Below are positions 8,509 to 58,524 of a stretch of 64,000 bases of DNA, one piece after another. Each line of letters opens with the position of its first letter. Positions within the stretch are counted from its first letter, which is position 1. This DNA comes from a phage. The notes under the pieces are model-generated. The model was not told the DNA's origin, ran no database searches, and saw only the letters and a list, made by a program, of their open reading frames with translations. A program made the position numbers and the translations under genes. Where the stretch lies: the NCBI GenBank assembly GCA_011911785.1, contig GCA_011911785.1_4084.1; one strand, 5' to 3'.

Positions 8509-8509
8509 T

Positions 8510-44222: not shown

Positions 44223-44266
44223 ATTCCCTCCTTTATTCATTATACTATATTTAATCAAAAAGAAAT

Positions 44267-44285
44267 GCCAGCATCAAGTACTGGC
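44267..44285 (-). terminator. intrinsic terminator, array cassette (imperfect)
   Basis: GCCAGCATCAAGTACTGGC hairpin. Confidence 0.45.
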
Positions 44286-44292
44286 GAAATTA

Positions 44293-45483: not shown

Positions 45484-45529
45484 ATATTCCTCCTTTATTC
45501 ATTATACTATATTTACCCCAAAAAGAAAT

Positions 45530-45548
45530 GCCAGTATCAAGTACTGGC
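45530..45548 (-). terminator. intrinsic terminator, array cassette
   Basis: GCCAGTATCAAGTACTGGC hairpin. Confidence 0.5.
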
Positions 45549-45554
45549 CTATAT

Positions 45555-46724
45555 TTAAACTGGTGAATCTAATACAAATTCTAAACTACTAATGCCACCA
45601 TATGTGACATTTGTCCCTGTGCTATATACAAAATTACCATCAGTTATATAAGTTCGGTTATACCCACCTGCCATCTGCGACTTACTATAATCAAACCCAT
45701 CAGGAACGATTGCTTTGGTATATACTAATGCATTATTAGATGTACCAATACCTAACATACCAGCTTCTGAAGATTTATTGTAGCCGCAACAATATATACC
45801 ATCTGTTGTAGCAATAACTTGGTTATAATATGAAGTAATGTTAGCAATGCTTACTACATCACCGGGTGGCATTAGTGAAGCAGTTTGAACCTCAAATGCT
45901 CTATAATCACTGAGAGAACCATTTATCCCATCTGCTTGTGCACCAAATATTCTCGAACCGCCATTTGCGATGATGGTTTTACCAGTGGGATCAGTACCAA
46001 TTGCCATTGCCATTGAAGTACTATTCTCCATATAGTACTTGATATTAATTGTATTTCTTAAGCTGGTAGGAGCACCATAATATATAGTATATAACTTACC
46101 TCCTGAACTTGTAACTGCATTTACTCTTCCTGTATAAAATAGCCATCCTTGGTTTGTAACATAACCGTGCATTAAATTACTTGCAAACAATTTAACAGGT
46201 AATTGATCTGCTGCGGTCGGAACAGTACTTTTGACGAATTTTCTAGCAACATTGTTAGTTGTTGTCCCATCACCCAACTGACCATCACCCCCTGCTCCAG
46301 TACTCCATATTGTTTGGTCTGTTAGTAATACACTTGTAGTCTGATAACTAACTGCTATATCTAATATTGGTAATGTTAACGTATCGAATGTTGGCATAGC
46401 AGAAGTCCATATTGATACTGCTGCCCCTGGCATACCAACAGTTGTTGAACTTCCACTGTACCATATTTCATCATTGCTTTTCTTAATAACTATCGACGTG
46501 GCTCCCATCCAAAAATCTTGAACATCAGAAGTGCTAAAAGTCCATGTAGTAACAATATTTTTGTGACCTAAACCCAAAAGACCATTTGCATTCTCACCAC
46601 GCACATATAAATCACCACTGTTTGTTAAAACAGCAACATTATAGTTGTTAGCTAGTATTTTTTTAATATTTGGTTTAGCAGGTGCAATATTCCCATACTC
46701 TAACATTCTTACAAAAGGTAACAT
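45555..46724 (-). CDS. beta-propeller family protein, MLPFVRMLEYGN N-terminal module
   Basis: Conserved start context and N-terminus; GxGGDGQLGDG-like repeats. Confidence 0.65.
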   Translation of the reverse strand: MLPFVRMLEYGNIAPAKPNIKKILANNYNVAVLTNSGDLYVRGENANGLLGLGHKNIVTTWTFSTSDVQDFWMGATSIVIKKSNDEIWYSGSSTTVGMPGAAVSIWTSAMPTFDTLTLPILDIAVSYQTTSVLLTDQTIWSTGAGGDGQLGDGTTTNNVARKFVKSTVPTAADQLPVKLFASNLMHGYVTNQGWLFYTGRVNAVTSSGGKLYTIYYGAPTSLRNTINIKYYMENSTSMAMAIGTDPTGKTIIANGGSRIFGAQADGINGSLSDYRAFEVQTASLMPPGDVVSIANITSYYNQVIATTDGIYCCGYNKSSEAGMLGIGTSNNALVYTKAIVPDGFDYSKSQMAGGYNRTYITDGNFVYSTGTNVTYGGISSLEFVLDSPV

Positions 46725-46769
46725 AATTCCTCCTTTATTCATTATATTATATTTAATCCAAATAAGAAA

Positions 46770-46788
46770 GCCAGTATCAAGTACTGGC
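46770..46788 (-). terminator. intrinsic terminator, array cassette
   Basis: GCCAGTATCAAGTACTGGC hairpin. Confidence 0.5.
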
Positions 46789-46794
46789 TTTAAT

Positions 46795-47943
46795 TCATTG
46801 TATAAATGACATATCAACTTCGGTATATCTTGTAGTGTACTGCCCAGAACTTCCACCCATTACTAGATTGGAAAAACCAGTATAAAATAACTTACCTTCA
46901 TCTGTGAGAATCAAACTACCGATGTTATTCAGTACTAAACTGTAAGAACTATTAAAATTAGCATAGGACTGGGTATAATAGAACTGATTTGTAAGATTAC
47001 CAACACCCAATTGTCCACCAGTGTTAACCCCAGTTGCAAATATCGTAGTACCAAATCTGCGAATATGCGAGGCCATATTGCCGACGCAACAATGTACATT
47101 CTGAACATCCGAATTCAATAAAGTTGGTGTTGTGTATTGCTTAAGTGTTGTGCCTGTACCGAATTCATTACCATATGATACCCCATACTGTGTACCACAA
47201 GCGTACAATTTATTATCATCTTTAATAAAAAATGTACTCTGATAACTTACATCGACATCTATAACATTAGTCTGTATTCTAACAACTCCAGTACTAGCAG
47301 TTTGATTGCCTGTCCCTAACTGATAGTAAGTGTTAATACCACAACCCCATAATGTATTATCTTCTTTTAGGTATATGTTACCAACAGCTTTTTTTACCGA
47401 TGATATGGCTTCAATCTTAACAAAGGCGTTAAATGAATTTGTATTTGTGCCATTACCAAAAGATGATCTGGTTGATGTGCTGTTTGTTCCGCAGCAATAT
47501 AAAGTACCATCAGTTGTTATCAAATTCACTTTAAGATCACTGTAACTACTCATGTATTTTATATCAGAAACATTAATACCACTGGATGTTATCCATGAAG
47601 TACAATCTGTCCACGTGTTATAATATGCACCTGAACCAGAAAACGCACTCGGACTTCCTGTTATAAACACTTTTCCAGTACCGTCTTCTTCATATAATTG
47701 ACAACCACTACTGTTATTTTCCAAAAGAACTCTTTTAACATTAGTTGCACTAAGAATAAATTTACTTGACGATACACCAGTCCCCGTACCCTGACTGACT
47801 GCTGCTGAAGCATACAAATTTTTAGTGTATGTATCATGAAAATACATAGCACTACCACCGGAATATATTTTAAAACGTGTACTAGGATCTGGTGGAATTG
47901 GTGCAATATTCCCATAATCTAACATTCTTACAAAAGGTAACAT
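46795..47943 (-). CDS. beta-propeller family protein, MLPFVRMLDYGN N-terminal module
   Basis: Conserved start context; YYQLGTGN, GGQLGVGN repeats. Confidence 0.65.
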   Translation of the reverse strand: MLPFVRMLDYGNIAPIPPDPSTRFKIYSGGSAMYFHDTYTKNLYASAAVSQGTGTGVSSSKFILSATNVKRVLLENNSSGCQLYEEDGTGKVFITGSPSAFSGSGAYYNTWTDCTSWITSSGINVSDIKYMSSYSDLKVNLITTDGTLYCCGTNSTSTRSSFGNGTNTNSFNAFVKIEAISSVKKAVGNIYLKEDNTLWGCGINTYYQLGTGNQTASTGVVRIQTNVIDVDVSYQSTFFIKDDNKLYACGTQYGVSYGNEFGTGTTLKQYTTPTLLNSDVQNVHCCVGNMASHIRRFGTTIFATGVNTGGQLGVGNLTNQFYYTQSYANFNSSYSLVLNNIGSLILTDEGKLFYTGFSNLVMGGSSGQYTTRYTEVDMSFIQ

Positions 47944-47988
47944 AATTCCTCCTTTATTCATTATATTATATTTAATCCAAATAAGAAA

Positions 47989-48007
47989 GCCAGTATCAAG
48001 TACTGGC
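47989..48007 (-). terminator. intrinsic terminator, array cassette
   Basis: GCCAGTATCAAGTACTGGC hairpin. Confidence 0.5.
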
Positions 48008-48013
48008 ATTATG

Positions 48014-49123
48014 TTATTTTGGTAAATCAATTTTAGTAAAGACTGCAACATCCTCGCTTGCACCGGGAATGGCGTAATACGTTCCAGTACTATATACATC
48101 TCCATTTTTGGTTAATATTGAAGTCAAACCATCACTAAAAAGAACATCCCTAATCTCACTAACTTCAACGGGTAATTGTAAATTTGTAGCACTATATATA
48201 GCACCAGTTTGAGAATTGTTTAATCCCAAACCACGGTTCGCCCCAACACCCTTCTGATATGTACTGGTAATTACCATTTGTGTAGCAGTATTTAATGCAG
48301 GTGAATTCGTCATAAACAACGGAGAACTATTAGGAAAAGTACTTGCAGGAACTGCACGGAATGTAGTCGTGCCTGAACTAAGAAAGTTTGGAGTTTGACC
48401 ACATACGAAATATGATGTACCATTATAGTAATTAAATGCATTACCACCAATGGCTGCATCGATTACACCAGAACTACGTAATCCCCAAGTGTTAATTTGT
48501 GTTTGGTCCCCTGTACCATGCTGCCCACTGCTATTCCATCCAGAACTATATAGCTTATTATCTAATGTAATATACATACTATCATTTGCATTAGTCATTA
48601 CTTTACGCACGTTAGTAGCACATTGAGTTAATGTGTAAATCGATGATGAGCCAATACCTAAAGAACCACGATATCCATTATCTCCTGCACCATAGAGTAC
48701 TGAACTAGTGCTAAGTACAAATATTAAACCATTTGTACATACAATATTAGCAATTTCACTCACTGGTATAGCATTGGTAAACCAATTAGTCCTTTCAACT
48801 AATATAGTACTGTAAGAAGTAGTTGTAGAAGATGAGAACCAGTACGTTTCACCCGATGTCCATATCGTATTATCATTTTTAATAATAACAAGTGTACGAC
48901 CACCCACGAAAAAATTAGAAACATCTGAACTTACTAATATCCATGAAGATACCGTGTTGTTATTACCATTTCCAGATTCACCACCTTGATTTCTACCTAT
49001 GTAATATAAATCATGTGAATCAGTCAATAAGAATTGACCTTGTGTAGAAGCACCAACTTTAATTATATTTTTAGGACCAGGTACAATATTCCCATACTCT
49101 AACATTCTAACAAAAGGTAACAT
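48014..49123 (-). CDS. beta-propeller family protein, MLPFVRMLEYGN N-terminal module
   Basis: Conserved start context and N-terminus. Confidence 0.65.
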   Translation of the reverse strand: MLPFVRMLEYGNIVPGPKNIIKVGASTQGQFLLTDSHDLYYIGRNQGGESGNGNNNTVSSWILVSSDVSNFFVGGRTLVIIKNDNTIWTSGETYWFSSSTTTSYSTILVERTNWFTNAIPVSEIANIVCTNGLIFVLSTSSVLYGAGDNGYRGSLGIGSSSIYTLTQCATNVRKVMTNANDSMYITLDNKLYSSGWNSSGQHGTGDQTQINTWGLRSSGVIDAAIGGNAFNYYNGTSYFVCGQTPNFLSSGTTTFRAVPASTFPNSSPLFMTNSPALNTATQMVITSTYQKGVGANRGLGLNNSQTGAIYSATNLQLPVEVSEIRDVLFSDGLTSILTKNGDVYSTGTYYAIPGASEDVAVFTKIDLPK

Positions 49124-49169
49124 AATTCCTCCTTTATTCATTATACTATATTTAATACAAATAAGAAAA

Positions 49170-49188
49170 GCCAGTACAGAGTACTGGC
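49170..49188 (-). terminator. intrinsic terminator, array cassette
   Basis: GCCAGTACAGAGTACTGGC hairpin. Confidence 0.6.
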
Positions 49189-49195
49189 TATTATA

Positions 49196-50338
49196 TTATT
49201 TCCACGGTAGAAGTGAATCAGGAACTCTGGTTGGTACTCTAACGGCTGGAACATTTCCAAGTTCAGGTAAACCACTCATATACAAATTGTTATTTTCATC
49301 AATTATCATTGAATAGAAATTATCAATTACGAAGCCTGAAATTCGTCTTCCTTCTAATGCATCAAGAACCATTTCGGTGAAAGTTAGTATATTTTCGGAT
49401 GTTTGATTAACACCACATGCACCATAGGTATTTCGACCACAAGTATATAACTTATTATTATTTTTAACAACACATCCATTCCCTTCGTTGTTGGATAAAC
49501 CACCCACCAACTCTATTTCACCTTGGAATGATAAATTGGGAATTAATGTACTCATTGGTACTGCTGATACTCTACCTACACCAGCTTGACCATATGCATT
49601 TGGTGAAGCAACCTTCACTGAACCATCATTAAGAAATATATATGAAGTACGGTATGTATTTACAGCTTGTATAGCATTGGTGATCGTATTGTCTTTTGTA
49701 AAACTTAATATATTTGATGTTGTTGTACTACCAGGAGCAACAGTATTTCCTGCATACCAATAGGAGCCATCATCAAGTACTAACCCAGTACTGAGCAAAG
49801 AACAGCCATAACTTTTAACATTTTCTATAGTGCTGTATCTGAACGATGTGACATTAGCTGTTGACGCGTTACCAAATACACCACCTTCGCCAGCACCACA
49901 GTAGAACCATTTTCCATTTTTTAAAAATACACGCAAATTCTGCCCAACAGCAATACCATCAATATCATCAGCACTGACACCAAAATCAGTGAAGTACTGG
50001 GTTACATCAATCCAAACCCCATTTGTATTTGTTCCGATTTGTGGCATTACTATACTAGCACCTGTGAACCAAATAGTTCCATCATTCTTAATGGCAATGG
50101 AACCAAGAACACCACCCCAGTAACGTTCAATATTATTATTCACACGGGTCCATACGGTGGATGATTGTAATGAACCATTACCACCTTGTCCAAATGAAGA
50201 TGAACCATACCAGTACAAGTCACCATTAACATGCAAATAAAAACGAGTATTATAATTTGCTTGTAATCTATTTTTAAATAGAGGTTTTGGTTCTGGTGCT
50301 TCATTTCCATACTCTAACATTCTAGCAAAAGGTAACAT
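49196..50338 (-). CDS. beta-propeller family protein, MLPFARMLEYGN; near-duplicate of 50412..51554
   Basis: Same length (380 aa) and long identical stretches with neighbour. Confidence 0.7.
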   Translation of the reverse strand: MLPFARMLEYGNEAPEPKPLFKNRLQANYNTRFYLHVNGDLYWYGSSSFGQGGNGSLQSSTVWTRVNNNIERYWGGVLGSIAIKNDGTIWFTGASIVMPQIGTNTNGVWIDVTQYFTDFGVSADDIDGIAVGQNLRVFLKNGKWFYCGAGEGGVFGNASTANVTSFRYSTIENVKSYGCSLLSTGLVLDDGSYWYAGNTVAPGSTTTSNILSFTKDNTITNAIQAVNTYRTSYIFLNDGSVKVASPNAYGQAGVGRVSAVPMSTLIPNLSFQGEIELVGGLSNNEGNGCVVKNNNKLYTCGRNTYGACGVNQTSENILTFTEMVLDALEGRRISGFVIDNFYSMIIDENNNLYMSGLPELGNVPAVRVPTRVPDSLLPWK

Positions 50339-50385
50339 AATTTCCTCCTTTATTCATTATACTATATTTAATACAAATAAGAAAA

Positions 50386-50404
50386 GCCAGTACAGAGTAC
50401 TGGC
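50386..50404 (-). terminator. intrinsic terminator, array cassette
   Basis: GCCAGTACAGAGTACTGGC hairpin. Confidence 0.6.
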
Positions 50405-50411
50405 TATTATA

Positions 50412-51554
50412 TTATTTCCACGGTAGAAGTGAATCAGGAACCCTTGTCGGTACATTTGTAGTAGACACCCCATCAAGATTTGGTACACCGCATGTATATA
50501 AATTATCAGCATCGTCAACTAACATCGTATAGTTATATCCCCTACAAAAACTACTAACATTACGACCTTCTAATGCAGTAAGAATCATTTCAGTGAATGT
50601 TGTTATATTTGTCGAGGTTGAACCAACACCACATTGTCCATTTGAATTAAGACCACATAAAAATAACTTATTATCATTTTTAATTATACAGGATGGTCCA
50701 GTAAGGTTTGTACCAAGCTCACCCACTAACTCTATTTCACCTTGGAATGCTAAATTTGGAATTAATGTACTCATAGGGGCTGGTGTTGTATTCCCAGTAC
50801 CTGCTTGACCACGTTCGTTGGAAGATGCAACTTTAACTGTTCCATCACTAAGAAATATATAGGAAGTTTCAATTGTATTGACTGCTTTAATTGCAGTGCT
50901 GATAGAAGTTTCTTGTGTAAATCTTAGCACGTTTTGTGCTGACGTTCCCGATATAAACGTATTACCTGCATACCAATATGTACCATCATTGAGTACTAAT
51001 GCAGTACTTCGAATTGCACAACCAGCACTTCGAACATTTTCTATAGTACTGTACGTGAATTGTGAAACGCTTGCCGATGAACCATTTCCGAATACACCAC
51101 CACTCCCAGCACCACAGAAGAACCACTTTCCATTTTTCAAAAATACACGCATACACGCAGATATAACAATACTATCAATATCATCAGCACTGACACCGAA
51201 ATCAGCAAAGTGCGATGTCACATCAACCCAAACACCGTTAGTGTTTGATGCAATTACTGGAATAACAGAACTTGTACCAGTGTACCAAATAGTACCATCT
51301 TTCTTTATCGCTATTGTTCCTTGAACACCACCCCAATATCGTACAACATTTGTATTGACGAGAGTCCATGCGGTTGAAGAGTTCAATGAACCATTACCAC
51401 CTTGACCATATGATGAAGAACCAAACCAATATAGATTACCATTGGTGTGTAAATAAAATTTGGCATCTGCCGAGCATTGTAACCTATTTTTTAATCGTGG
51501 TGCGGGTTCCGGTGCAATATTCCCGTACTCTAACATTCTTGCAAAAGGTAACAT
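50412..51554 (-). CDS. beta-propeller family protein, MLPFARMLEYGN
   Basis: Starts 12 nt after upstream gene stop (co-transcribed). Confidence 0.7.
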   Translation of the reverse strand: MLPFARMLEYGNIAPEPAPRLKNRLQCSADAKFYLHTNGNLYWFGSSSYGQGGNGSLNSSTAWTLVNTNVVRYWGGVQGTIAIKKDGTIWYTGTSSVIPVIASNTNGVWVDVTSHFADFGVSADDIDSIVISACMRVFLKNGKWFFCGAGSGGVFGNGSSASVSQFTYSTIENVRSAGCAIRSTALVLNDGTYWYAGNTFISGTSAQNVLRFTQETSISTAIKAVNTIETSYIFLSDGTVKVASSNERGQAGTGNTTPAPMSTLIPNLAFQGEIELVGELGTNLTGPSCIIKNDNKLFLCGLNSNGQCGVGSTSTNITTFTEMILTALEGRNVSSFCRGYNYTMLVDDADNLYTCGVPNLDGVSTTNVPTRVPDSLLPWK

Positions 51555-51566
51555 AATTCCTCCATA

Positions 51567-52463
51567 TTATTTAAAAACATACTGCGTATTAACACGAGTG
51601 CCATTGTCAAAACCAAGTACATAAAATATCTCAGCACTATTCTTAGAACCAAATAACGCACCAGTACTACTACTCAAAGTAGTATTAACCGCTAAGGGAA
51701 TCCATATGTCTTCTTCTGCATCGTATCTCAATAAATTTAATGCACCATACGACACTGCATATATATTTTTATCATATGTACTGTAACATATTTTACTAGG
51801 GTTATTACCACCAACTGGTGCTATGTTAGACCACACCGCACTTTGTATATGATATTTTTGTGCAGTACTAGTACCTTGACCAGTAATATATATGTAAGTA
51901 CCATCCGTACACATATCACCACCTCCATTGTTATTTGTTCCATCACTTGTACCTAATGATGACCATGTATTAGTACTTGGAGTATAACTGTATAACGAAT
52001 TATTAGTAGGCGAACCCCACAAATATATCTTATCCCCAGCAGTAATCATCTTACTATACGCCAGTTGACTAGGCTTCCCAATACTGTTAGTGTTCAGAAT
52101 CCATGTATTTGTACTTATATTATATACATAAAAATTATTACTACTATTACCTGAACCACCAAACAAATATATTTTTCCCTGATAAGCACATAACGCACTA
52201 CCAAATGTAGATACAGGTGCATTGGCTAATTGTGACCACGTTCTTGTAGTTAAATTAAAACTCCATAACTGATTATCCGTCTGCACCGCATTCTGTATAC
52301 CACCAAATATATAAGCAATATTACTTTCCGCATCATACGTATAACCAAAGTTATTTCGTGCTGAAGGTACTGGTGTTGTAGTAAATTGTGTTCGTACTCC
52401 ACCATTTGGGCCAGGTAATGGACCTACATTCCCGAACTCAAACATTCTAACAAAAGGTAACAT
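51567..52463 (-). CDS. beta-propeller family protein, MLPFVRMFEFGN; Kelch-like repeats
   Basis: Conserved cassette start; IYLFGG/IYIFGG-type motifs. Confidence 0.65.
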   Translation of the reverse strand: MLPFVRMFEFGNVGPLPGPNGGVRTQFTTTPVPSARNNFGYTYDAESNIAYIFGGIQNAVQTDNQLWSFNLTTRTWSQLANAPVSTFGSALCAYQGKIYLFGGSGNSSNNFYVYNISTNTWILNTNSIGKPSQLAYSKMITAGDKIYLWGSPTNNSLYSYTPSTNTWSSLGTSDGTNNNGGGDMCTDGTYIYITGQGTSTAQKYHIQSAVWSNIAPVGGNNPSKICYSTYDKNIYAVSYGALNLLRYDAEEDIWIPLAVNTTLSSSTGALFGSKNSAEIFYVLGFDNGTRVNTQYVFK

Positions 52464-52511
52464 AATTCCTCCTTTATTCATTATACTATATTTAATCAAA
52501 AAAGAAAACCC

Positions 52512-52540
52512 TTGACACCCTTTCAGTACTGATGTACTAT
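52512..52540 (+). promoter_or_regulatory. sigma70-type promoter (TTGACA-17-TACTAT) for the small-gene array, divergent from beta-propeller array
   Basis: Hexamers in the 100-bp divergent intergenic region. Confidence 0.5.
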
Positions 52541-52565
52541 ATGAGAAATCTAAGGAGAATCGTAC

Positions 52566-52793
52566 ATGCCATATGCTCTAAAGTACTACATCAATGAACT
52601 AAATGAACTAGAGTACGCAAAGGTTCTCTCTGACCAATCGTGGCTAATTGAACTAAAAAATCATAAGAGCACAGGGTGTAACCTTATGCTTGGTAGTGCA
52701 CTGAATACCCTTACTGTGAGCATTGTACACAATACACTATTAGGGGATACCCGTAAACAATTTTTAAACATCTTAGTACTAGTGGCTATATGA
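52566..52793 (+). CDS. small protein, first gene of tandem small-paralog array
   Basis: ATG after AAGGAGAA. Confidence 0.55.
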   Translation: MPYALKYYINELNELEYAKVLSDQSWLIELKNHKSTGCNLMLGSALNTLTVSIVHNTLLGDTRKQFLNILVLVAI

Positions 52794-52990
52794 ACATTAA
52801 CCCGTACTACATCAATGCATTGCACCCTGGGCTACAAGATGCAATGAAGAACCAAAAAACAGTACTGAAAAATGCTAAACGCATACCAGGACTCCTGAAC
52901 TCAAACAGGAATAACCTCATATGGAATGCAATAGAAGGTAACGAAAGTATGCAGTACTATTTCATCTTAACACTACTATTGGAGTACTAA
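52790..52990 (+). CDS. small paralog-array protein
   Basis: ATGA overlap. Confidence 0.5.
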   Translation: MNINPYYINALHPGLQDAMKNQKTVLKNAKRIPGLLNSNRNNLIWNAIEGNESMQYYFILTLLLEY

Positions 52991-52991
52991 T

Positions 52992-53201
52992 ATGAATACT
53001 GAACATAAAGAATTCTACACCAAATACCTCAGCAACGAAGAACAAATGTTTCTAAGGAGTGTACCACCTGTAAGTATAGACACACCCAACACAAGGAATT
53101 GCTTTAATAATTGTATACGTAGTACTCTAGAAGCTATTGAATGCAATAACAAAAATATGCAGTACTCAAGTTTAATCGGACTAATATACTTCTATGAATA
53201 A
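52992..53201 (+). CDS. small paralog-array protein (HKEFYTKYL N-terminal motif)
   Basis: Starts 2 nt after stop; family motifs. Confidence 0.55.
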   Translation: MNTEHKEFYTKYLSNEEQMFLRSVPPVSIDTPNTRNCFNNCIRSTLEAIECNNKNMQYSSLIGLIYFYE

Positions 53202-53385
53202 TCATAAAGATTTCTACTGTAGTAAACTACACGAACAATACAGGGACTCATTCCCTCAAGAACCTATGAGAAAGAATAGTCCCTTTTATAATTACGATTT
53301 CAGGTTGGAGACACGTTATGCAATAGAACAACCATTTACTTCAACTAAGTACCGCTCTATCCTGAACCTCATCTTTAAGTTCTAA
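53194..53385 (+). CDS. small paralog-array protein (HKDFYCSKL)
   Basis: Family motifs. Confidence 0.5.
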   Translation: MNNHKDFYCSKLHEQYRDSFPQEPMRKNSPFYNYDFRLETRYAIEQPFTSTKYRSILNLIFKF

Positions 53386-53605
53386 AAAGGTACTATATGA
53401 AAACTACAAACATTCATCAGTACTACATAGATATTCTCCCTAAAGATATACAGTTCATACTTAAACAAGAATTCAGTACTTTTTAAAAACTTAAAAGAAC
53501 CGCACCGAATGTACTCATCCAGCACCAAAAAAATGTCGTGCGTAATATTCTACAAGGTGCAACAGGGACCGAGTACTTTAATATAGTAAGGCTAATTACA
53601 TTACA

Positions 53606-53791
53606 ATGAATCATATAAGCTACTATTACCAAAAACTATCCGACAGAGACAAGTACAGCCACAACTCCCATGTGTGGTACTACAAACGCGGCAGTATAAG
53701 AGACAAACAACATTACTTCTGTACTGCTATAAAAGAAACACTAACAACTAAGTACACGTACAGAGCAGTACTTAAACTTATTGAAATGTAG
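53606..53791 (+). CDS. small paralog-array protein
   Basis: Family-like termini. Confidence 0.5.
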   Translation: MNHISYYYQKLSDRDKYSHNSHVWYYKRGSIRDKQHYFCTAIKETLTTKYTYRAVLKLIEM

Positions 53792-53799
53792 AGAATACA

Positions 53800-53979
53800 A
53801 TGCTAGAATACTACCTAAGCGTAATTTACCCAGAAGATAGATACGGCTTCAATTACTTCTCAATGAGCTATCATTGTAGTTCGCAAAGAAAACAAAGAAA
53901 ATTACTCCTGAATTGTACTAAATTGGCACAGGACGAAATGTTCACATATAATGAAGTACTGAAACTAATCTCTATATAA
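53800..53979 (+). CDS. small paralog-array protein (MLEYY...), 59 aa
   Basis: Below ORF-track cutoff; ATG 9 nt after previous stop. Confidence 0.4.
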   Translation: MLEYYLSVIYPEDRYGFNYFSMSYHCSSQRKQRKLLLNCTKLAQDEMFTYNEVLKLISI

Positions 53980-53989
53980 GGAATAAACT

Positions 53990-54169
53990 ATGCTAGAGTA
54001 CTACACCGATAATCTCAGTACTAAGGATCGTTTCATGTACGACACCTTCGTGAAGTACTACAACATAGGAACAAAAAGTACTAAAACTATTAATCTCAAT
54101 AGCTGCATTCATCACGTCCTGACAAAAAATAACCCATACAGAGAAATAATCTCGCTTGTAACAGTATAA
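53990..54169 (+). CDS. small paralog-array protein (MLEYY...), 59 aa
   Basis: Below ORF-track cutoff; paralog of previous. Confidence 0.4.
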   Translation: MLEYYTDNLSTKDRFMYDTFVKYYNIGTKSTKTINLNSCIHHVLTKNNPYREIISLVTV

Positions 54170-54197
54170 GCAGTATAAGCAATTTAAGGAGACTAAA

Positions 54198-54869
54198 ATG
54201 AAACTCAATCCACAAAGCAAACGATACCTACAGCACTTTAAGTACCTACAATCAATCCAGGCTGAATCTACCACTAATGCATATACTTATCATCCTAATG
54301 TACTAAAGAACCTAAAGAAAAGTAAAAAAACCAGTACAAATGGAGTTAACGTATCAAAGAACCTTGAATTGTACATGAAGAAAAATAATATAGCTGTTCA
54401 TTATATGAATATCTATAATACTGATTTAAAAGTATTGAGTACTAATACGAGCATGAAGGTACTAAAGAACGCATCCTTCATCATCCATATGCAGTTGGAT
54501 AATACCCCGTGCACTTTAATGCTATACTTCGGGAATACATACTTCTTCGGGAATTGTAACACCTCCCACGATGTCAATACAGCACAATTCCAAATGGGTG
54601 GCATATACAGTATGGGTTCAGAAGAAATACACGATAACATGCATTTCTTCCAACAGCAACGTACAGAAGAAACTAAATCAATTGTAGAATTCCTCAAAGA
54701 ACTACAAGGCAAAGAATTATCAGAAGAAGAACTATTCATGTACAGTACTGTAATCGATAATCCTGTACTGTACAAAAACGCGTACAATCTTACAAAACAT
54801 GTACAGGAACTTATCAGTACTAATAAGAAAATTCATCACCTCATTACATATATTACAAACTATGCATAA
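54198..54869 (+). CDS. hypothetical 223-aa protein embedded in the small-gene array
   Basis: ATG after AAGGAGACTAAA. Confidence 0.55.
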   Translation: MKLNPQSKRYLQHFKYLQSIQAESTTNAYTYHPNVLKNLKKSKKTSTNGVNVSKNLELYMKKNNIAVHYMNIYNTDLKVLSTNTSMKVLKNASFIIHMQLDNTPCTLMLYFGNTYFFGNCNTSHDVNTAQFQMGGIYSMGSEEIHDNMHFFQQQRTEETKSIVEFLKELQGKELSEEELFMYSTVIDNPVLYKNAYNLTKHVQELISTNKKIHHLITYITNYA

Positions 54870-55044
54870 AGAATACTACGTAAGTAAACTTACAATAGAT
54901 CTCCAAAAACTTATTCCCCAAAAACCTGTAGATTTCAAAGATAAAAGCCAAACTATATTCTACCGATATCAAACAGAATCTGCAATAAATGAAGATGATA
55001 TCTATAACCTGTACAATGTACTAACACTTATATACAGGTACTAA
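54862..55044 (+). CDS. small paralog-array protein (MHKEYY...LIYRY)
   Basis: Internal ATG; conserved N- and C-terminal motifs. Confidence 0.6.
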   Translation: MHKEYYVSKLTIDLQKLIPQKPVDFKDKSQTIFYRYQTESAINEDDIYNLYNVLTLIYRY

Positions 55045-55045
55045 T

Positions 55046-55234
55046 ATGCACAAAGAATACTACACAAAATATTTCCCAATGTACCTCAGAACTAATCTAT
55101 TAGATAAACCTCGCGGTATCAATGCACAAAACGATAAAAAGTACTTTACTATGTGCACTAAAGCATGTATACAAGATTATGATAGCTATCATCGAGTACT
55201 GTACCACACCCTGTACCTCGCATTCGTGTACTAA
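55046..55234 (+). CDS. small paralog-array protein (MHKEYY...LAFVY)
   Basis: Starts 2 nt after stop. Confidence 0.6.
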   Translation: MHKEYYTKYFPMYLRTNLLDKPRGINAQNDKKYFTMCTKACIQDYDSYHRVLYHTLYLAFVY

Positions 55235-55243
55235 GGAAATCAT

Positions 55244-55444
55244 ATGCATAAAGAACACTACATAAAAGAACTACCAAAGTTTCTACAAGGCAATCTATTA
55301 GATGATGAACCTCGCGACATTAACTGTATATACGAAGCTGATTACTTCCGTACATGTACTGAACAAGTACTTAATGAAGAAGTTAATGAAAACAATTCTC
55401 AAGTGCAACTGTACCACACTCTGTATCTCGCGTTCCAGTACTAA
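55244..55444 (+). CDS. small paralog-array protein (MHKEHY...LAFQY)
   Basis: Conserved termini. Confidence 0.6.
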   Translation: MHKEHYIKELPKFLQGNLLDDEPRDINCIYEADYFRTCTEQVLNEEVNENNSQVQLYHTLYLAFQY

Positions 55445-55452
55445 GGACTAAT

Positions 55453-55635
55453 ATGTATAAAGAATTTTATAAAGATCATCTCCCAATGCATCTCCAACAC
55501 CATGTGCCAACAAAACCATTGGGCATAAAAGATCATGCAAAAATAATGTTCCAACAATGTACTAAGTACACCCTAATATACGATGACAATCCATATATGC
55601 TGTACTACATAACAATGCTAATATTCAGGTACTAA
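55453..55635 (+). CDS. small paralog-array protein (MYKEFY...LIFRY)
   Basis: Conserved termini. Confidence 0.6.
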   Translation: MYKEFYKDHLPMHLQHHVPTKPLGIKDHAKIMFQQCTKYTLIYDDNPYMLYYITMLIFRY

Positions 55636-55637
55636 TC

Positions 55638-55838
55638 ATGTATAAAGAATACTATATGAGTAAACTATCAAGCACCGAAAGAATCTGGTGCGGAGCCGCC
55701 GCCCCCGTTAATCCAAAAAGTGCATACGCAAAAATGTGCTTTAGGAAAGCTACAACGAACTCAATTGAAGCTCTAGAACAAGATGACACTAAAGCACTAT
55801 ACTCTAACCTAATGTTGCTAGTATATATCTATGGATAA
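55638..55838 (+). CDS. small paralog-array protein (MYKEYY...)
   Basis: Conserved termini. Confidence 0.6.
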   Translation: MYKEYYMSKLSSTERIWCGAAAPVNPKSAYAKMCFRKATTNSIEALEQDDTKALYSNLMLLVYIYG

Positions 55839-56022
55839 TTATAAAGAATACTATAAACAATTTGTTAAAGAGAACTACAAAGATGCCGTCCCCGTAATCC
55901 CTTTAAATTCCCATGACCCAAGTTCTATATTCTTGTTTAAGGACGCAATACGTACAGTACTCAATACTAAAGATGAACAGGTGCAGTACGTATTCTTACT
56001 ATTACTTATATACAGACACTAA
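55831..56022 (+). CDS. small paralog-array protein (YKEYY...LIYRH)
   Basis: Conserved termini. Confidence 0.6.
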   Translation: MDNYKEYYKQFVKENYKDAVPVIPLNSHDPSSIFLFKDAIRTVLNTKDEQVQYVFLLLLIYRH

Positions 56023-56023
56023 T

Positions 56024-56221
56024 ATGAATGACCATAAAGAATTCTATATAAGTAAACTCAAAGAGAATGAACAAGTATGGATTAACGCTCTAATCCCTCT
56101 ACCAATGACTCGATATGAATTTAATAAATGTACTAATATAGCAATAGACCCTTCTCCTGTTCTAGAGAATGTACAGTACAATCAGTACTACTATATCTTA
56201 ATGCTTATATATAGGAAGTAA
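56024..56221 (+). CDS. small paralog-array protein (HKEFY...LIYRK)
   Basis: Internal ATG 2 nt after previous stop. Confidence 0.6.
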   Translation: MNDHKEFYISKLKENEQVWINALIPLPMTRYEFNKCTNIAIDPSPVLENVQYNQYYYILMLIYRK

Positions 56222-56851
56222 TTAAACACATATAGCTAGGGGAAGCTCCGTAGTGCAAGCATTATACAGGCTTTAACATATGTTGCATATGTTAAAATTC
56301 AGCCTGGACAAATGCGATCACTAGGATTCTCCCCAGGCTAAACCCCGTAATCATAGGTAGTCATAAGTAATCATATATAAACATTTAAGTAATCATTTAT
56401 AATCATTGCAGTGAAGAGTATTGAGTACTGTTTCCCCTATATGATTCAGTACTGATATCCCACTAAGTAGGCAAATGAAGTCGCCCAAAATTTACATAAT
56501 TTTACAGTACTGAACAATTGCAAAACAAATCATTTCCAATCAAAAGTAATCACGGAATGACCAGTACTGAAAACTCCCAATCACCTATTCAAAAAAGTTC
56601 AATTTACCCTTTGTCAAAAATCCCGAATACCCATTGGGGAAAATTCCGAATACCCCTTGAGGCTCCAGCAAAAAGTTGGTTAGTACTCCATTGTAAATCT
56701 GGATCGTAAAAATTTTGGAGTACCTATGAAATAAAAGTTGGATCTTCGAAAGTTGAAATTTACATTGGGACATATAGGATTAGTGGGATATAATGAGTTT
56801 TGAAGAGATACAGAAGATATGTTTTCAGTACTGAATAATGAAAGAAATCTA

Positions 56852-56879
56852 TTGACATTATGATTCAGTACTGTATAAT
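56852..56879 (+). promoter_or_regulatory. orphan sigma70-type promoter (TTGACA-16-TATAAT) in non-coding hub
   Basis: Consensus hexamers with no ORF downstream. Confidence 0.45.
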
Positions 56880-57280
56880 GTTCTACATAGAGTGATGGAT
56901 TGCCGCAAACAATTCAGAGCCTTAACCCTCCTGTCGTGAGACAGTACAGAAGAGATTGAATCCTCCTATGCAGTGGTTCATCTTTGACAACCTCTTTTTT
57001 CGTAATATAAACAGTACTGTTATTAACAGAATGGTAGCAGTACTGATATTAATCTAATATAATGTTACCATGCAATGTGGTGAATTTCCCTTAACAGTAT
57101 TCAGTACTACATGATAGTCTTCATCCTCCTAGGGTAACATAGTGAGGGCTATTGTGGCAGTACTGAATACTCCTTTCACAAGATAGATCTATGGTATAGT
57201 ACTGACGGATTTTGGGCGTAGTAACCCTGGGTGGATTTTGGACGTAGAGATGCCTAGCCCTCCAGAAGTCTGGAAGTAAA

Positions 57281-57408
57281 GATGGCTATCCCTCTAGACG
57301 GCTGGATGGCTAGATTTCTAGATGGCTGTACTGCTAGACGTTTGGACGGCTAAACGGCTAAACGGCTAAACGGCTAGATGGTTAAACGTCTGGATGTATA
57401 GACGGCTA
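57281..57408. repeat. tandem array of ~16 copies of an 8-bp unit (consensus GAYGGCTA)
   Basis: Direct reading: gatggcta, gacggctg, gatggcta, gacggcta, aacggcta x3, gatggtta, gacggcta etc. in strict 8-bp register. Confidence 0.85.
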
Positions 57409-57573
57409 AATCAAAATTTTTATTTTGTTTTTTCCAATAGTTCCCCTACCGCGTGGGGATGGTTTCCCCGCAGTATCTGGAGTTAGATTTTTCTGAATCT
57501 GGAATCATTATCTAATAAACTGGGGGCAATGTCAACCGCCTGGATGAATATTTTTAAAAATAATCTAGTACTG

Positions 57574-57650
57574 AATTTTGGGCGTAACTATGCACCCGGT
57601 GGGCTAGAGTCTTTCTCGACTTGATGAAATAATTATAGCAGTACTGAATG
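57574..57650 (+). repeat. repeat element B copy (ttttgggcgta...gcacccggtgggctagag...taattata)
   Basis: Shares ~50-bp core with copies at 57786, 59660, 61176. Confidence 0.5.
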
Positions 57651-57785
57651 ATAAAAGCAATAGCCTAAGTGTAAAAAGTTTTAATTAATTTGCTTGCCAT
57701 CCTGGGGCGTACTATGGTACTATGATTCAGTACTGAGAAAGTGCTTTTACCTGCTAGGGTGCGGGAGTGTATCCTTTTTAAATTT

Positions 57786-57860
57786 ACTGAATTTTGGGCG
57801 TAGTTCCGCACCCCCTGGGGTATCCGCTTTCTCGCGTCTATGTAGTAATTATACGCTTTT
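57786..57860 (+). repeat. repeat element B copy
   Basis: ttttgggcgtagttccgcaccccctggggtatccgctttctcgcgtctatgtagtaattatac. Confidence 0.5.
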
Positions 57861-58078
57861 TTAGTACTGAGTCAATAGCTAAAAACAAAATAATTGAAAA
57901 TAATTTAACGCGTTTAAATGGCCCGTAAAGCCCTGGATTGTTGGGAGTGGTGCAAATGTATAGCTTAGGTGTATTAATGCGTTAGAATGCGTATGAGGCC
58001 GTTTTAAGGGTATAGTACTGAATAATAGTACTCCTATATAGAAAGAAAACTATTTTAAAAAGTATTTGTAGAAAGTAC

Positions 58079-58106
58079 TTGCAAAGTATTGGGAAAGGTG
58101 TAGAAT
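58079..58106 (+). promoter_or_regulatory. early-type promoter (aaaagtacTTGCAA-16-TAGAAT-gttttacatc)
   Basis: First of >=12 near-identical promoter units in block C. Confidence 0.6.
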
Positions 58107-58120
58107 GTTTTACATCGAGA

Positions 58121-58137
58121 GCGGGAACACTTCCCGC
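58121..58137 (+). promoter_or_regulatory. 5' leader hairpin (GCGGGAA-CAC-TTCCCGC)
   Basis: Inverted repeat between -10 and SD. Confidence 0.55.
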
Positions 58138-58161
58138 TACACTTTAAGAGAGATTAAAACG

Positions 58162-58524
58162 ATGGCTACTCAAATCAATAAAATTATTGCTAACCTGGTT
58201 AACTTCCGCGAAGAGATGAAAGGTCTTCCGGCTGAAACTGTAAAGATTCACATTTCAGCTTATCGGGAATTGATTGCGATGTTACCGCTTAAGCGTGAAC
58301 AATACGCCGCTACCGTGATGCTTGATGCGATGATCCACAAGATGATTGCCAGTGATTTAACGATGGCTTATCAGTACATGGGCGAAATGTTTGCGGTGTA
58401 TAGTAAACCAGTACCAGGGATGGAAAGTACCGAAGTATTGCACGGTTTAAACTTAAAACAAGATGCATGGGATAATATGCCTCGTTTCCTGGTATGGGCT
58501 GACAGTGGCAAGATTTACGAATAA
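58162..58524 (+). CDS. hypothetical protein
   Basis: ATG downstream of leader hairpin; track start 58105 lies in the -10. Confidence 0.6.
   Translation: MATQINKIIANLVNFREEMKGLPAETVKIHISAYRELIAMLPLKREQYAATVMLDAMIHKMIASDLTMAYQYMGEMFAVYSKPVPGMESTEVLHGLNLKQDAWDNMPRFLVWADSGKIYE

What the first reader, a model, noticed from the sequence alone, without database searches (positions are those of the whole stretch)
56222..58078. 1.9-kb non-coding hub with an 8-bp tandem array and several repeat classes
No credible ORF spans this region. It holds (i) ~16 copies of an 8-bp unit (GAYGGCTA) at 57281-57408, (ii) repeated ttttgggcgta motifs and ~50-bp element-B copies, (iii) an orphan strong promoter at 56852, (iv) many TTCAGTACTGAA palindromes and (v) G/C-rich inverted repeats at 57430-57480. 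It is also the boundary between two regulatory architectures. Short tandem iterons in a gene-free region fit a replication origin or packaging-recognition site, or an array of binding sites for a phage DNA-binding protein.
Basis: partly seen in the sequence, partly recalled or inferred. Interest (0 to 1): 0.75.

Follow-up and report, generated by a model that had tools for sequence, protein, structure and literature searches.

The report
Phage genome end with MetJ-box array
This gene-free stretch is where a giant E. coli phage's DNA physically ends and its 21-kb terminal repeat begins, and its 8-bp array reads as an oversized binding site for the host methionine repressor MetJ, an element also found near the ends of unrelated phages.

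Summary
Window 56222-58078 has no credible gene and is rich in repeats.

The window is an Asteriusvirus (121Q/PBECO4/G17-like jumbo coliphage). Six independent relatives with mapped ends all start their ~21-kb direct terminal repeat (DTR) at the base matching window 56466. So the region straddles the DTR boundary, with 244 bp in unique DNA and 1.64 kb inside the repeat. That explains the "two regulatory architectures". It also parallels phage T5's untranslated Repeat Region 3 (the injection-stop region).

The 8-bp array (57248-57407, about 20 units) is not made of origin iterons. Under the published MetJ metbox matrix and criteria, it holds the only two qualifying sites in 64 kb: 9 boxes (73.7 bits) and 4 boxes (30.7 bits). 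Natural E. coli operators score 25-31 bits.

Similar arrays lie near DTR ends in other jumbo phages, T5-like phages and T7-like phages. All infect hosts from MetJ-bearing orders, except XbC2, a close relative of an Erwinia phage. A more distant Xanthomonas relative with the same hub lacks the array.

MetJ binding and its purpose are inferred, not shown. Candidate purposes are a repressor sink, a roadblock or terminus architecture.

The parts
56233..56340 (+). Long imperfect hairpin just after the last gene of the unique region, 126-233 bp outside the terminal repeat.
   Evidence: RNA fold gives -47.3 kcal/mol, z = -6.7. The outer stem and right arm are conserved in relatives; the inner part is not.
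56347..56407 (+). Cluster of four GTAATCA(T) repeats (10- and 22-bp periods), 60-120 bp outside the cut site. One further copy lies inside the repeat at 56546. This is a candidate terminase-recognition element (inference).
   Evidence: TRF rows at 56347-56407. Families D9 and D12. This is the densest TAATCA cluster in the 64-kb window, and all copies are on the plus strand.
56440..56486 (.). Conserved island holding the physical genome end. The cut falls between 56465 and 56466 (...GATATCCCACTA|AGTAGGCAAATGAAGTCGCCC). The DTR starts at 56466 and runs rightwards past the window end. TGAAGTC sits at 56476-56482, which is +11 to +17 from the end.
   Evidence: The ends of six records (G17, vB_Ec-M-J, BF17, fEgEco12, WPEC5, WPEC3) all begin AGTAGGCAGAGGAAGTC. 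The two G17 DTR copies are 100% identical over 20,668 bp. Ends were mapped by PhageTerm plus restriction digests, or by read coverage. TGAAGTC is at the same offset in the CBB, BF and XbC2 record starts.
56605..56659 (+). 23-bp direct repeat, 2.4 copies (AAAATYCCGAATACCCMTTGRGG). Function unknown.
   Evidence: TRF.
56852..56879 (+). Consensus sigma-70 promoter 386 bp inside the DTR, firing inward towards the array and the DTR genes. No gene or structured RNA follows it directly.
   Evidence: 12/12 match to the consensus. 96% conserved in relatives. Downstream 125 nt fold at z = -0.02. No Rfam match.
57207..57247 (+). Two GGATTTTGGRCGTAG motifs directly before the array. The same motif heads both element-B copies. 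CBB and BF have CTGAATTTTGGGTGTA before their arrays.
   Evidence: Family D10. CBB and BF sequences.
57248..57407 (.). Tandem array of about 20 8-bp units in one register (AGACGGCT, AGATGGCT, AAACGGCT, AAACGGCT, AAACGTCT, AGACGTTT and others). Sixteen units score as MetJ metboxes, including runs of 9 (57336-57407) and 4 (57296-57327).
   Evidence: Scored with the published metbox matrix and criteria (PMC3228920). The runs score 73.7 and 30.7 bits and are the only qualifying sites in 64 kb; simulated sequences reach at most 22 bits. The base profile correlates with natural metboxes at r = 0.967. Relatives differ by whole-unit gains and losses.
57408..57440 (.). AT-rich spacer between the array and the GC-rich box.
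   Evidence: Read directly from the sequence. Conserved in relatives.
57441..57476 (.). G/C-rich overlapping inverted repeats (TTCCCCTACCGCGTGGGGATGGTTTCCCCGCAG). Nearly invariant in Asteriusvirus, and conserved as TTCCCCTTCCGCG in the jumbo phages CBB and BF.
   Evidence: Fold z = -3.1 on the minus strand.
57507..57535 (-). Promoter-like site (TTGACA-17-GATAAT, 11/12) pointing leftward at the array and the genome end.
   Evidence: The region is 88-99% conserved. CBB has an analogous site at 927 to 900.
57569..57853 (+). Two copies of 'element B' (57569-57637 and 57785-57853). Each has TACTGAATTTTGGGCGTA, then a GC dyad, then TTTCTCG, then TAATTATA. Function unknown.
   Evidence: Family D3. 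Its core is 91% identical to Serratia phage BF 1068-1102. No significant RNA structure.
57973..58026 (+). Motif ATTAATGCGTTAGAATGCG...AGGCCGTTTTAAGG, similar to the start of T5 inverted repeat IRD' in Repeat Region 3.
   Evidence: Smith-Waterman score of 40 against T5 9341-9394. Shuffles gave 24.5 +/- 2.5, maximum 35.
58105..58524 (+). First gene of the terminal repeat (139 aa, no known family). It marks the right edge of the hub.

Best explanation
The region is the control hub at the inner boundary of the long direct terminal repeat of an Asteriusvirus jumbo phage.

Shown by homology to mapped ends:
- Virion DNA ends at window 56465|56466, inside a small conserved island with TGAAGTC at +11 to +17.
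- GTAATCA repeats lie 60-120 bp outside the cut. They are a candidate terminase recognition element (inference).
- Everything to the right of the cut is DTR. It is present twice per genome and full of small, individually promoted early-type genes transcribed away from the hub.

In position and make-up the hub corresponds to phage T5's untranslated Repeat Region 3 (the injection-stop region), which also straddles the inner DTR boundary.

Inferred from sequence: the 8-bp array is a super-sized operator for the host methionine repressor. It has about 16 metbox-grade units, 13 of them in runs of 9 and 4. MetJ dimers loaded with S-adenosylmethionine (SAM) should coat it cooperatively, one dimer per 8 bp.

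The purpose is not shown. My leading guess (about 0.25-0.3) is a high-capacity MetJ sink. It sits in DNA that is duplicated per genome and amplified by replication. That would pull MetJ off the host met regulon and raise methionine and SAM supply.

The main alternatives are a MetJ nucleoprotein block or scaffold used at the genome end (packaging start, or a T5-like transfer pause; about 0.25) and a roadblock to transcription from the flanking promoters (about 0.15).
For: Terminus:
- The two G17 DTR copies are 100% identical over 20,668 bp, and the boundary falls inside the finding.
- Six records end at the same base, which matches window 56466.
- The ends were mapped by PhageTerm plus restriction digests (fEgEco12), PhageTerm (BF17) and read coverage (G17).
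- TGAAGTC is at the same offset from the end in three genera.

T5 parallel:
- T5 Repeat Region 3 is 1.2 kb, untranslated and repeat-rich, and overruns the left terminal repeat (LTR) by 270 bp. Here the hub is 1.86 kb with a 244-bp overrun.
- A local T5 IRD'-like match scores about 6 sd above shuffles.
- Providencia phage PR1 (T5-like) carries a metbox array 769 bp inside its annotated DTR boundary. The distance here is 782 bp.

MetJ:
- Under the published matrix and criteria, the array holds the only two qualifying sites in 64 kb, at 73.7 and 30.7 bits. Simulated sequences reach at most 22 bits.
- The same scan recovers the real metJ/metB and metF operators (31.2 and 24.9 bits) and nothing else in 12 kb of E. 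coli.
- Arrays were defined by periodicity alone in 7 phages (102 units). Their half-site profile correlates with natural metboxes at r = 0.967, with the same base ranking at all four positions.
- No phage in the database encodes a MetJ homologue.
- Arrays occur in jumbo, T5-like and T7-like DTR phages of Enterobacterales, Vibrio and Aeromonas. These host orders are among the five that have MetJ.
- The Xanthomonas relative XaC1 has the same hub architecture but no array.
- Array orientation is not conserved, as expected for a dyad-symmetric binder.

Sink idea:
- The array has many more boxes than an operator needs, and its copy number varies by whole units.
- No promoter overlaps the array in four phages.
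- A related jumbo phage methylates its DNA and encodes its own methyltransferases, implying SAM demand.
Against: - No binding data exist. MetJ occupancy is inferred from sequence only.
- Most units have G at position 6 (AGACGGCT), which is the second-best base there, so individual boxes are sub-consensus.
- The terminus was not mapped for this isolate. It is transferred from relatives that are 80-95% identical.
- XbC2 was isolated on Xanthomonas, which lacks MetJ, yet keeps the array. It is 84.6% similar to an Erwinia phage.
- T5 itself and the E. coli T5-like phages lack the array, so it is not required for DTR packaging or for two-step transfer.
- The similar distance from the DTR boundary in PR1 and the jumbo phages fits a position-dependent role better than a pure sink.
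- T5's DnaA boxes and its A1/A2 proteins are absent here.
Confidence: 0.6

Rival explanations
1. Replication origin. The 8-bp units are iterons for an initiator, the adjacent AT-rich tract (57408-57440) is the unwinding element, and the GC-rich inverted repeats help assembly.
For: The array lies next to a 33-bp AT-rich tract. GC skew changes sign exactly at the hub (-0.19 to +0.06/+0.13) although genes are on the plus strand on both sides. The region is gene-free and more conserved than its flanks.
Against: The units are 8 bp and match the MetJ profile. There are no DnaA boxes. No initiator-like gene lies nearby. The same array occurs in T5-like and T7-like phages that have different replication systems. 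T5 origins map mid-genome, not in the terminal repeat. Only a 64-kb piece of the skew curve was seen.
Confidence: 0.08
2. Packaging (pac-like) site. The array is bound by a phage-encoded protein, such as a small terminase or a ribbon-helix-helix protein. That protein nucleates terminase, which then cuts about 780 bp away at 56466.
For: The array always lies 0.04-0.8 kb from a DTR end or boundary. The distance is similar in PR1 (769 bp) and here (782 bp). No small terminase has been identified in BF17. Short repeat arrays near ends are typical of pac and cos regions (established knowledge: P1 pac, lambda cosB, T7 end repeats).
Against: Three unrelated lineages with unrelated packaging proteins share the same unit and even a 19-mer. 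The base preferences equal those of host MetJ. No MetJ homologue is found in phages. Copy number varies freely and T5 lacks the array. The GTAATCA cluster and the conserved island next to the cut are better candidates for terminase recognition.
Confidence: 0.12
3. A T5-type injection-stop signal. The far end of the DTR enters first and about 21 kb of early genes are expressed. Transfer then pauses at the hub copy at the inner boundary until early proteins release it. The array, with or without MetJ, is part of the stop.
For: The architecture matches T5: a long DTR, small early-type genes transcribed away from a repeat-rich untranslated hub, and a hub that straddles the inner boundary. In PR1 the array (9621-9692) sits where T5's calculated first-step-transfer (FST) shear point lies (about 9618). 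In AhSzw-1 and Pontus the array is flanked by sequence resembling T5 Repeat Region 3 (read by eye, not scored).
Against: No homologues of T5 dmp, A1 or A2 occur in the G17 DTR or the window. There are no DnaA boxes. Two-step transfer has never been reported for this group in the papers searched. T5, the only phage where the stop is established, lacks the array. It is unclear how a cytoplasmic repressor would halt DNA entry.
Confidence: 0.12
4. The array is a neutral minisatellite produced by slippage, and its likeness to metboxes is a coincidence.
For: Copy number changes by whole units among close relatives. Monotone 8-bp microsatellites that fit a loose metbox pattern exist in viral contigs.
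Against: The array is heterogeneous, with many distinct units. It is retained in every Asteriusvirus examined and across genera and families. Its substitution pattern follows the MetJ matrix position by position. It is absent from the relative on a host without MetJ.
Confidence: 0.03

Closest known systems
Long direct terminal repeats of Asteriusvirus and Rak2-like jumbo phages (G17, fEgEco12, BF17, CBB, XbC2)
   Same: The window is collinear with these genomes, and its hub aligns across their mapped DTR boundary. The cut-site island and the TGAAGTC offset are shared.
   Different: The papers read report only the length of the DTR. None describes the hub, the cut-site motif or the array.
Phage T5 Repeat Region 3 / injection stop signal (iss)
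   Same: Both are large untranslated regions, dense in repeats and palindromes, that straddle the inner boundary of a long DTR. Early genes read away from both. One short T5 IRD'-like motif is shared. T5-family members PR1, AhSzw-1 and Pontus carry the same array, in PR1 within that region.
   Different: There are no DnaA boxes, no DRD (GTGCAAATCCGACA) repeats and no A1/A2/dmp homologues. T5 itself has no metbox array. Virion and core genes are T4-like, not T5-like.
E. coli MetJ operators (metJ/metB, metF, metA and others)
   Same: Both consist of head-to-tail 8-bp units with consensus AGACGTCT and a CTAG-type junction. They show the same base preferences at every position and pass the published site criteria.
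   Different: Natural operators have 2-5 boxes (25-31 bits in the two scored here) and overlap a promoter. This array has 13 boxes in two runs plus 3 more (about 128 bits in total). It overlaps no promoter and lies in phage DNA near a genome end.
Left-end region of phage T7 (terminal repeat, short repeat arrays, strong early promoters A1-A3)
   Same: Both are non-coding leader regions next to a terminal repeat. Both have short repeated sequences and strong host-RNA-polymerase promoters pointing inward. T7-like PGT2 carries a 9-box array at 38-109 of its genome. The T7 layout is from established knowledge.
   Different: The T7 repeat is 160 bp and its short repeats are not metbox-like. That comparison is from memory and was not tested here.
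Chromosomal titration loci such as E. coli datA for DnaA
   Same: The concept is the same: a clustered array of binding sites that lowers the free level of a regulator. This rests on established knowledge and is an analogy only.
   Different: The protein is different, the array is carried by a phage, and no titration has been shown.

Membership tests
Boundary of a long direct terminal repeat (fixed, non-permuted ends) | The same long sequence is present at both ends of virion DNA. | tested here: met
   Met in relatives. G17 1-20668 equals 350150-370817 at 100% identity, and vB_Ec-M-J has an annotated DTR at 1-21525. The window holds only one copy, so this could not be tested on the isolate itself.
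Boundary of a long direct terminal repeat (fixed, non-permuted ends) | Ends lie at one defined base, determined experimentally. | tested here: met
   Six records end at the identical base. The methods were PhageTerm plus restriction digests, PhageTerm, and read coverage.
Boundary of a long direct terminal repeat (fixed, non-permuted ends) | The window sequence is homologous across the cut site. | tested here: met
   The window reads GATATCCCACTA|AGTAGGCAAATGAAGTC and G17 reads GATATGCCACTA|AGTAGGCAGAGGAAGTC.
Boundary of a long direct terminal repeat (fixed, non-permuted ends) | Ends mapped for this isolate. | not testable with these tools
   Sequencing reads or virion DNA would be needed.
MetJ operator (metbox array) | Two or more adjacent 8-bp boxes, each scoring at least a quarter of the consensus, with a total at least equal to the consensus (12.58 bits). 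| tested here: met
   9 boxes at 73.7 bits and 4 boxes at 30.7 bits, the only two qualifying sites in the window. Criteria are from PMC3228920.
MetJ operator (metbox array) | Base preferences match those of natural metboxes. | tested here: met
   r = 0.967, with identical base ranking at all 4 half-site positions. Units were chosen by periodicity, not by score.
MetJ operator (metbox array) | The host encodes MetJ. | tested here: met
   Hosts of array-bearing phages are Enterobacterales, Vibrio and Aeromonas. MetJ is confined to five gammaproteobacterial orders that include these. The exception is XbC2, and the relative XaC1 on Xanthomonas lacks the array.
MetJ operator (metbox array) | The boxes overlap the promoter they repress. 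| tested here: not met
   No sigma-70-like site overlaps the array here or in PGT2, PR1 or CBB.
MetJ operator (metbox array) | MetJ with SAM binds the DNA. | not testable with these tools
   EMSA, footprinting or ChIP would be needed.
T5 Repeat Region 3 / injection stop signal | A large untranslated, repeat-rich region straddling the inner DTR boundary. | tested here: met
   The hub is 1.86 kb, with 244 bp outside the DTR. The T5 region is 1.2 kb with 270 bp outside.
T5 Repeat Region 3 / injection stop signal | Paired DnaA boxes in IRD'-spacer-IRC'. | tested here: not met
   No TTWTNCACA or variant boxes occur in 56000-58200.
T5 Repeat Region 3 / injection stop signal | Sequence homology to T5 Repeat Region 3. 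| tested here: inconclusive
   One 54-bp local match scores 40 against a shuffle maximum of 35. blastn-short finds nothing. The array is shared only with non-T5 members of the family.
T5 Repeat Region 3 / injection stop signal | Pre-early proteins A1 and A2 (and dmp) are encoded in the repeat. | tested here: not met
   phmmer at E <= 10 finds no hit among 891 ORFs of G17 1-30000 and the window.
T5 Repeat Region 3 / injection stop signal | Two-step DNA transfer. | not testable with these tools
   Infection-interruption experiments would be needed.
Iteron-type replication origin | Iterons of about 17-22 bp, an initiator gene, DnaA boxes and an AT-rich unwinding element. | tested here: not met
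   The units are 8 bp. There are no DnaA boxes and no initiator family in the flanking ORFs. Only the AT-rich tract is present.
Known structured RNA (Rfam) | A match to a curated covariance model. | tested here: not met
   The only hits are two chance-level matches, E = 0.39 and 0.63, far below gathering scores.

The most novel reading that the evidence does not exclude
Phages with terminal repeats carry 'super-operators' for a host repressor in their end regions. These are arrays of 9-16 consecutive MetJ boxes, shared (including a common 19-mer) by jumbo myoviruses, T5-like siphoviruses and T7-like podoviruses of MetJ-bearing hosts. The arrays would act as a DNA sponge that strips MetJ from the host met regulon as phage DNA enters and replicates, re-programming methionine and SAM supply. 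This would be a way of hijacking host transcription with DNA alone, needing no phage protein.
Probability: 0.25. Interest if true: 0.85.

Novelty: new variant of a known kind. Interest (0 to 1): 0.72.

Why it matters
There are two gains.

The first is practical. The finding places the physical genome end of this phage group at a defined base and motif. It also explains why gene organisation changes there. Many Asteriusvirus records are deposited with arbitrary starts and collapsed repeats, so this matters for correct assembly, annotation and engineering.

The second is conceptual. The array links a host metabolic repressor (MetJ, which senses SAM) to the terminal regions of three unrelated phage lineages. 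If MetJ really binds, there are two readings. The phages may manipulate methionine and SAM metabolism through decoy DNA, or they may use a host repressor as a structural part of DNA entry or packaging. Either reading also bears on a long-standing question: what the repeat-rich region at the T5-type terminal-repeat boundary does. It supplies a defined sequence and a defined protein to test, using a purified protein that is already well characterised.

Tried and rejected
- IMG/VR scan with the terminus sequence: no match.
- IMG/VR scan with a degenerate six-box pattern: only PR1, AhSzw-1 and unrelated single-unit microsatellites, so it says nothing about prevalence.
- Small RNA from the orphan promoter: the downstream 125 nt fold no better than shuffles (z = -0.02). 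No convincing terminator follows. G17's ARNOLD terminator maps to poorly conserved window 57065-57083.
- Element B as a structured RNA: z = -0.5 and +0.9.
- Rfam at a permissive threshold: nothing.
- T5 pre-early protein homologues: none.
- DnaA boxes: none.
- Pfam on ten flanking ORFs: only DUF7249 above its curated cutoff, plus two weak sub-threshold matches.
- Phage-encoded MetJ: none. The three tblastn hits are two bacterial contigs and one 1.4-kb unannotated fragment filed in the phage set.
- MetJ array as a classical promoter-overlapping operator: no overlapping promoter in four phages.
- AGTACT palindromes as a hub-specific signal or a promoter element: they are enriched genome-wide. 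Only 7 of the roughly 458 strand-wise occurrences are followed by GTATAAT.
- A conserved 'CCCCTnCnGCG' box shared with the T5 nick site: too short, and the array's orientation differs in PR1, so I do not rely on it.
- Literature searches for MetJ or metbox arrays in phage genomes found no description.
Full report
**What the window is.** The finding region matches 42 phage records at 80-96% identity. All are Asteriusvirus jumbo phages of E. coli and Salmonella (121Q, PBECO4, G17, A4 and others). No ORF longer than 63 aa lies between 56222 and 58104. Curated annotations of A4, G17 and 121Q leave the stretch empty. Only automated gene callers place tiny ORFs there.

**Checking the observation.** Every listed feature exists.
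- TRF and the repeat finder confirm the 8-bp array.
- They also confirm four TTTTGGRCGTA motifs and a 69-nt 'element B' pair.
- The promoter at 56852 is a perfect TTGACA-16-TATAAT.
- The G/C-rich inverted repeats are present.
- One item is overstated. There is a single exact TTCAGTACTGAA in the region. The core AGTACT is 10.5-fold over-represented across the whole 64 kb (229 observed, 21.8 expected), so it is a genome-wide property that is only about 2.4-fold denser in the hub.

**The region holds the physical end of the genome.** Records about 20-35 kb longer than 121Q carry the region twice.
- In G17, bases 1-20668 are 100% identical to 350150-370817, so this is a direct terminal repeat. Its inner boundary falls inside the finding.
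- I oriented the ends of six independent records like the window: G17, vB_Ec-M-J, BF17, fEgEco12, WPEC5 and WPEC3. All begin with AGTAGGCAGAGGAAGTC.
- That start aligns to window 56466 (...GATATCCCACTA|AGTAGGCAAATGAAGTCGCCC).
- The ends were determined experimentally or from reads. The methods were PhageTerm plus restriction digests for fEgEco12 (DTR 20,993 bp), PhageTerm for BF17 and read coverage for G17. vB_Ec-M-J is annotated 'Direct Terminal Repeats 1-21525'.
- In the more distant genera, the record starts of CBB, BF and XbC2 read TATCYKTYCCTGAAGTC. TGAAGTC therefore sits at +11 to +17 from the end in all of them, as in the window (56476-56482). This argues that the ends are base-precise and that the motif belongs to the cut site.
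- Sixty to 120 bp outside the cut lies the densest cluster of GTAATCA(T) repeats in the window. It is a reasonable candidate for terminase recognition, but that is inference.

So 56222-56465 is the tail of the unique region, and 56466 onward is DTR. To the left are tightly packed small ORFs. To the right is the DTR's series of small genes, each with its own promoter and terminator and all reading away from the hub.

**Conservation.** Across eight relatives, the hub from about 56640 to 58100 is 80-100% identical to the window. That is better than the flanking ORFs, which are 50-68% identical. The 250 bp around the end are variable, except for the island at 56440-56486.

**Parallel with T5.**
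- T5's left terminal repeat is 1-10219. An annotated 'injection stop signal' lies at 9140-10149.
- Davison describes Repeat Region 3 (9194-10409) as a 1.2-kb untranslated maze of direct repeats, inverted repeats and palindromes. [quoted passage not shown]
- The hub here is 1.86 kb and overruns by 244 bp.
- One local match to the start of T5 IRD' (window 57973-58026) scores about 6 sd above shuffles.
- The likeness stops there. The hub has no DnaA boxes. No homologue of T5 dmp, A1 or A2 appears among 891 ORFs of the G17 repeat and the window.
- I therefore treat the hub as working like the T5 region in layout, not as a member of that family.

**The array is a MetJ-box array.** A sensitive BLAST with the hub unexpectedly matched only the array part in distant phages, and always near a record end or inside an annotated repeat.
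- Jumbo phages: CBB, BF, GAP32, the pEa_SNUABM phages, Kaldavass and XbC2.
- T5-family phages: Vibrio Pontus, Aeromonas AhSzw-1 and Providencia PR1.
- T7-like phages: PGT2, phiKT and KPV811.

The units (AGACGGCT, AAACGTCT, AGACGTTT, GGATGTAT, with a CTAG junction) recalled the 8-bp metbox of the E. coli methionine repressor. I tested that with the published half-metbox weight matrix and site criteria (PMC3228920).
- The whole window contains exactly two qualifying sites. Both lie in the array and in one register: 57336-57407 (9 boxes, 73.7 bits) and 57296-57327 (4 boxes, 30.7 bits). Three further good boxes lie upstream.
- One hundred simulated 64-kb sequences never exceeded 22 bits.
- The same scan on 12 kb of E. 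coli K-12 found only the known metJ/metB and metF operators (4 boxes each, 31.2 and 24.9 bits).
- Other phage arrays score higher still: AhSzw-1 16 boxes (138.9 bits), Pontus 15 (111.7), PR1 9 (88.5) and G17 12 (89.3). T5 has none.
- To avoid circularity, I took every in-register unit of seven arrays (102 units, including degenerate ones) as defined by periodicity alone. The resulting half-site frequencies correlate with the natural matrix at r = 0.967. The base ranking is identical at all four positions (AGTC, GATC, ACGT, CTAG).
- tblastn with MetJ finds no phage homologue.
- MetJ is confined to five gammaproteobacterial orders. The array-bearing phages infect Enterobacterales, Vibrio and Aeromonas.
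- The one exception is XbC2, which was isolated on Xanthomonas. It is 84.6% similar to an Erwinia phage.
- XaC1 is a more distant Xanthomonas relative with the same 1.5-kb hub and DTR layout. It has no metbox site in its first 36 kb.
- The array is inverted in PR1 relative to the others, as a dyad-symmetric binder would tolerate. CBB, BF, PGT2 and PR1 share the 19-mer AGACGTTTAGACGGCTAAA.
- Within Asteriusvirus the array gains and loses whole 8-bp units, while the AT spacer and G/C box beside it stay fixed.

**What it does.**
- Shown: the position of the genome end, the sequence match to MetJ sites, and the distribution of the array across phages.
- Inferred: MetJ-SAM dimers coat the array.
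- The purpose is open. No promoter overlaps the array here or in PGT2, PR1 or CBB, so a classical operator is unlikely.
- A repressor sink fits several facts: the excess of boxes, indifference to orientation, variable copy number, and placement in DNA that is doubled per genome. A related jumbo phage also methylates its DNA with its own enzymes, which implies SAM demand.
- An end-linked role fits others. The array is always found in terminal regions. It lies a similar distance from the DTR boundary in PR1 (769 bp) and here (782 bp). In PR1 it sits close to T5's calculated first-step-transfer (FST) shear point.
- A roadblock to the inward consensus promoter (56852) or the leftward promoter-like site (57535 to 57507) is a third option.

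**Origin hypothesis.** An AT-rich tract adjoins the array, and GC skew flips sign at the hub. Unit size, the lack of DnaA boxes and of an initiator gene, and sharing with phages that replicate differently all argue against an origin.

**Novelty.** The DTRs of this group are published. The papers I could read give only their length. Searches for MetJ or metboxes in phage genomes found nothing, and Davison's T5 comparison does not mention tandem 8-bp arrays. The search covers open-access papers only.

Noticed in passing
window 1-64000 (for example 56424, 56448, 56506 and others): AGTACT occurs 229 times against 21.8 expected (10.5-fold), by far the most over-represented palindromic hexamer. The extended form is C-AGTACT-G and the median spacing is about 195 bp. 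It is present throughout coding DNA, and XaC1's hub also has many copies. The cause is unknown; it could be a binding or modification site.
   Followed up: partly
window 52500-56200: A block of small plus-strand ORFs has negative GC skew (-0.16 to -0.19) and strong positive AT skew (+0.16 to +0.21). This is opposite to the other plus-strand genes of the window. The skew flips exactly at the DTR boundary.
   Followed up: partly
window 56476-56482; L010, L011 and L022 positions 11-17: TGAAGTC lies at +11 to +17 from the physical genome end in Asteriusvirus, Mimasvirus (CBB, XbC2) and Eneladusvirus (BF). At the other DTR boundary of G17 the junction reads CGAAGTCGCTA|AGG, so both cuts share CTA|AG with GAAGTC nearby, in inverted orientation.
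   Followed up: partly
L010 788-807, L011 775-797, L019 71-104, L020 1618-1636; window 57335-57354: The 19-mer AGACGTTTAGACGGCTAAA at the end of the array is shared by the jumbo phages CBB and BF, T7-like PGT2 and T5-like PR1 (inverted there). This hints at horizontal spread of the array rather than independent origin.
   Followed up: no
L013 1416-1723, L012 (reverse complement); T5 L014 9700-9790: In Aeromonas AhSzw-1, by eye and without scoring, the metbox array sits between sequences that look like T5's ATTATCATTCGCATTC and CCCTGCGC + GTGCAAATCCGACA. In Pontus only the downstream side was seen. That would be the position of T5's palindrome and major nick (9748/9749).
   Followed up: partly
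window 57507-57535 (- strand); L010 900-927 (- strand): A leftward promoter-like site lies about 100 bp to the right of the array and points at it and at the genome end. It is present in both the window (11/12 match) and CBB (9/12 with TG).
   Followed up: no
window 56233-56340: A long hairpin (-47 kcal/mol, z = -6.7) lies just outside the DTR. Its inner half is replaced in the 121Q, SHEFM2K and SD-2 lineage, while the outer stem is kept.
   Followed up: partly
window 41619-52499 (- strand): A run of nine similar-sized minus-strand genes (310-472 aa). In G17 the collinear genes include one annotated as weakly similar to a 'putative DNA condensation protein', which suggests a paralogous family next to the small-ORF block.
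   Followed up: no
window 922-3217: A cluster of five tRNA genes (Gly, Ser, Met, Asn, Thr).
   Followed up: no
L024, L027-L042 (IMG/VR contigs): Perfect single-unit 8-bp microsatellites (AAATGTCT, AAATGTTT, GGATGGCT, GAATGGTT and others, 6-15 copies) occur in diverse viral contigs, including giant-virus bins, often at contig ends. They fit a loose metbox pattern but are unrelated to the heterogeneous phage arrays.
   Followed up: partly
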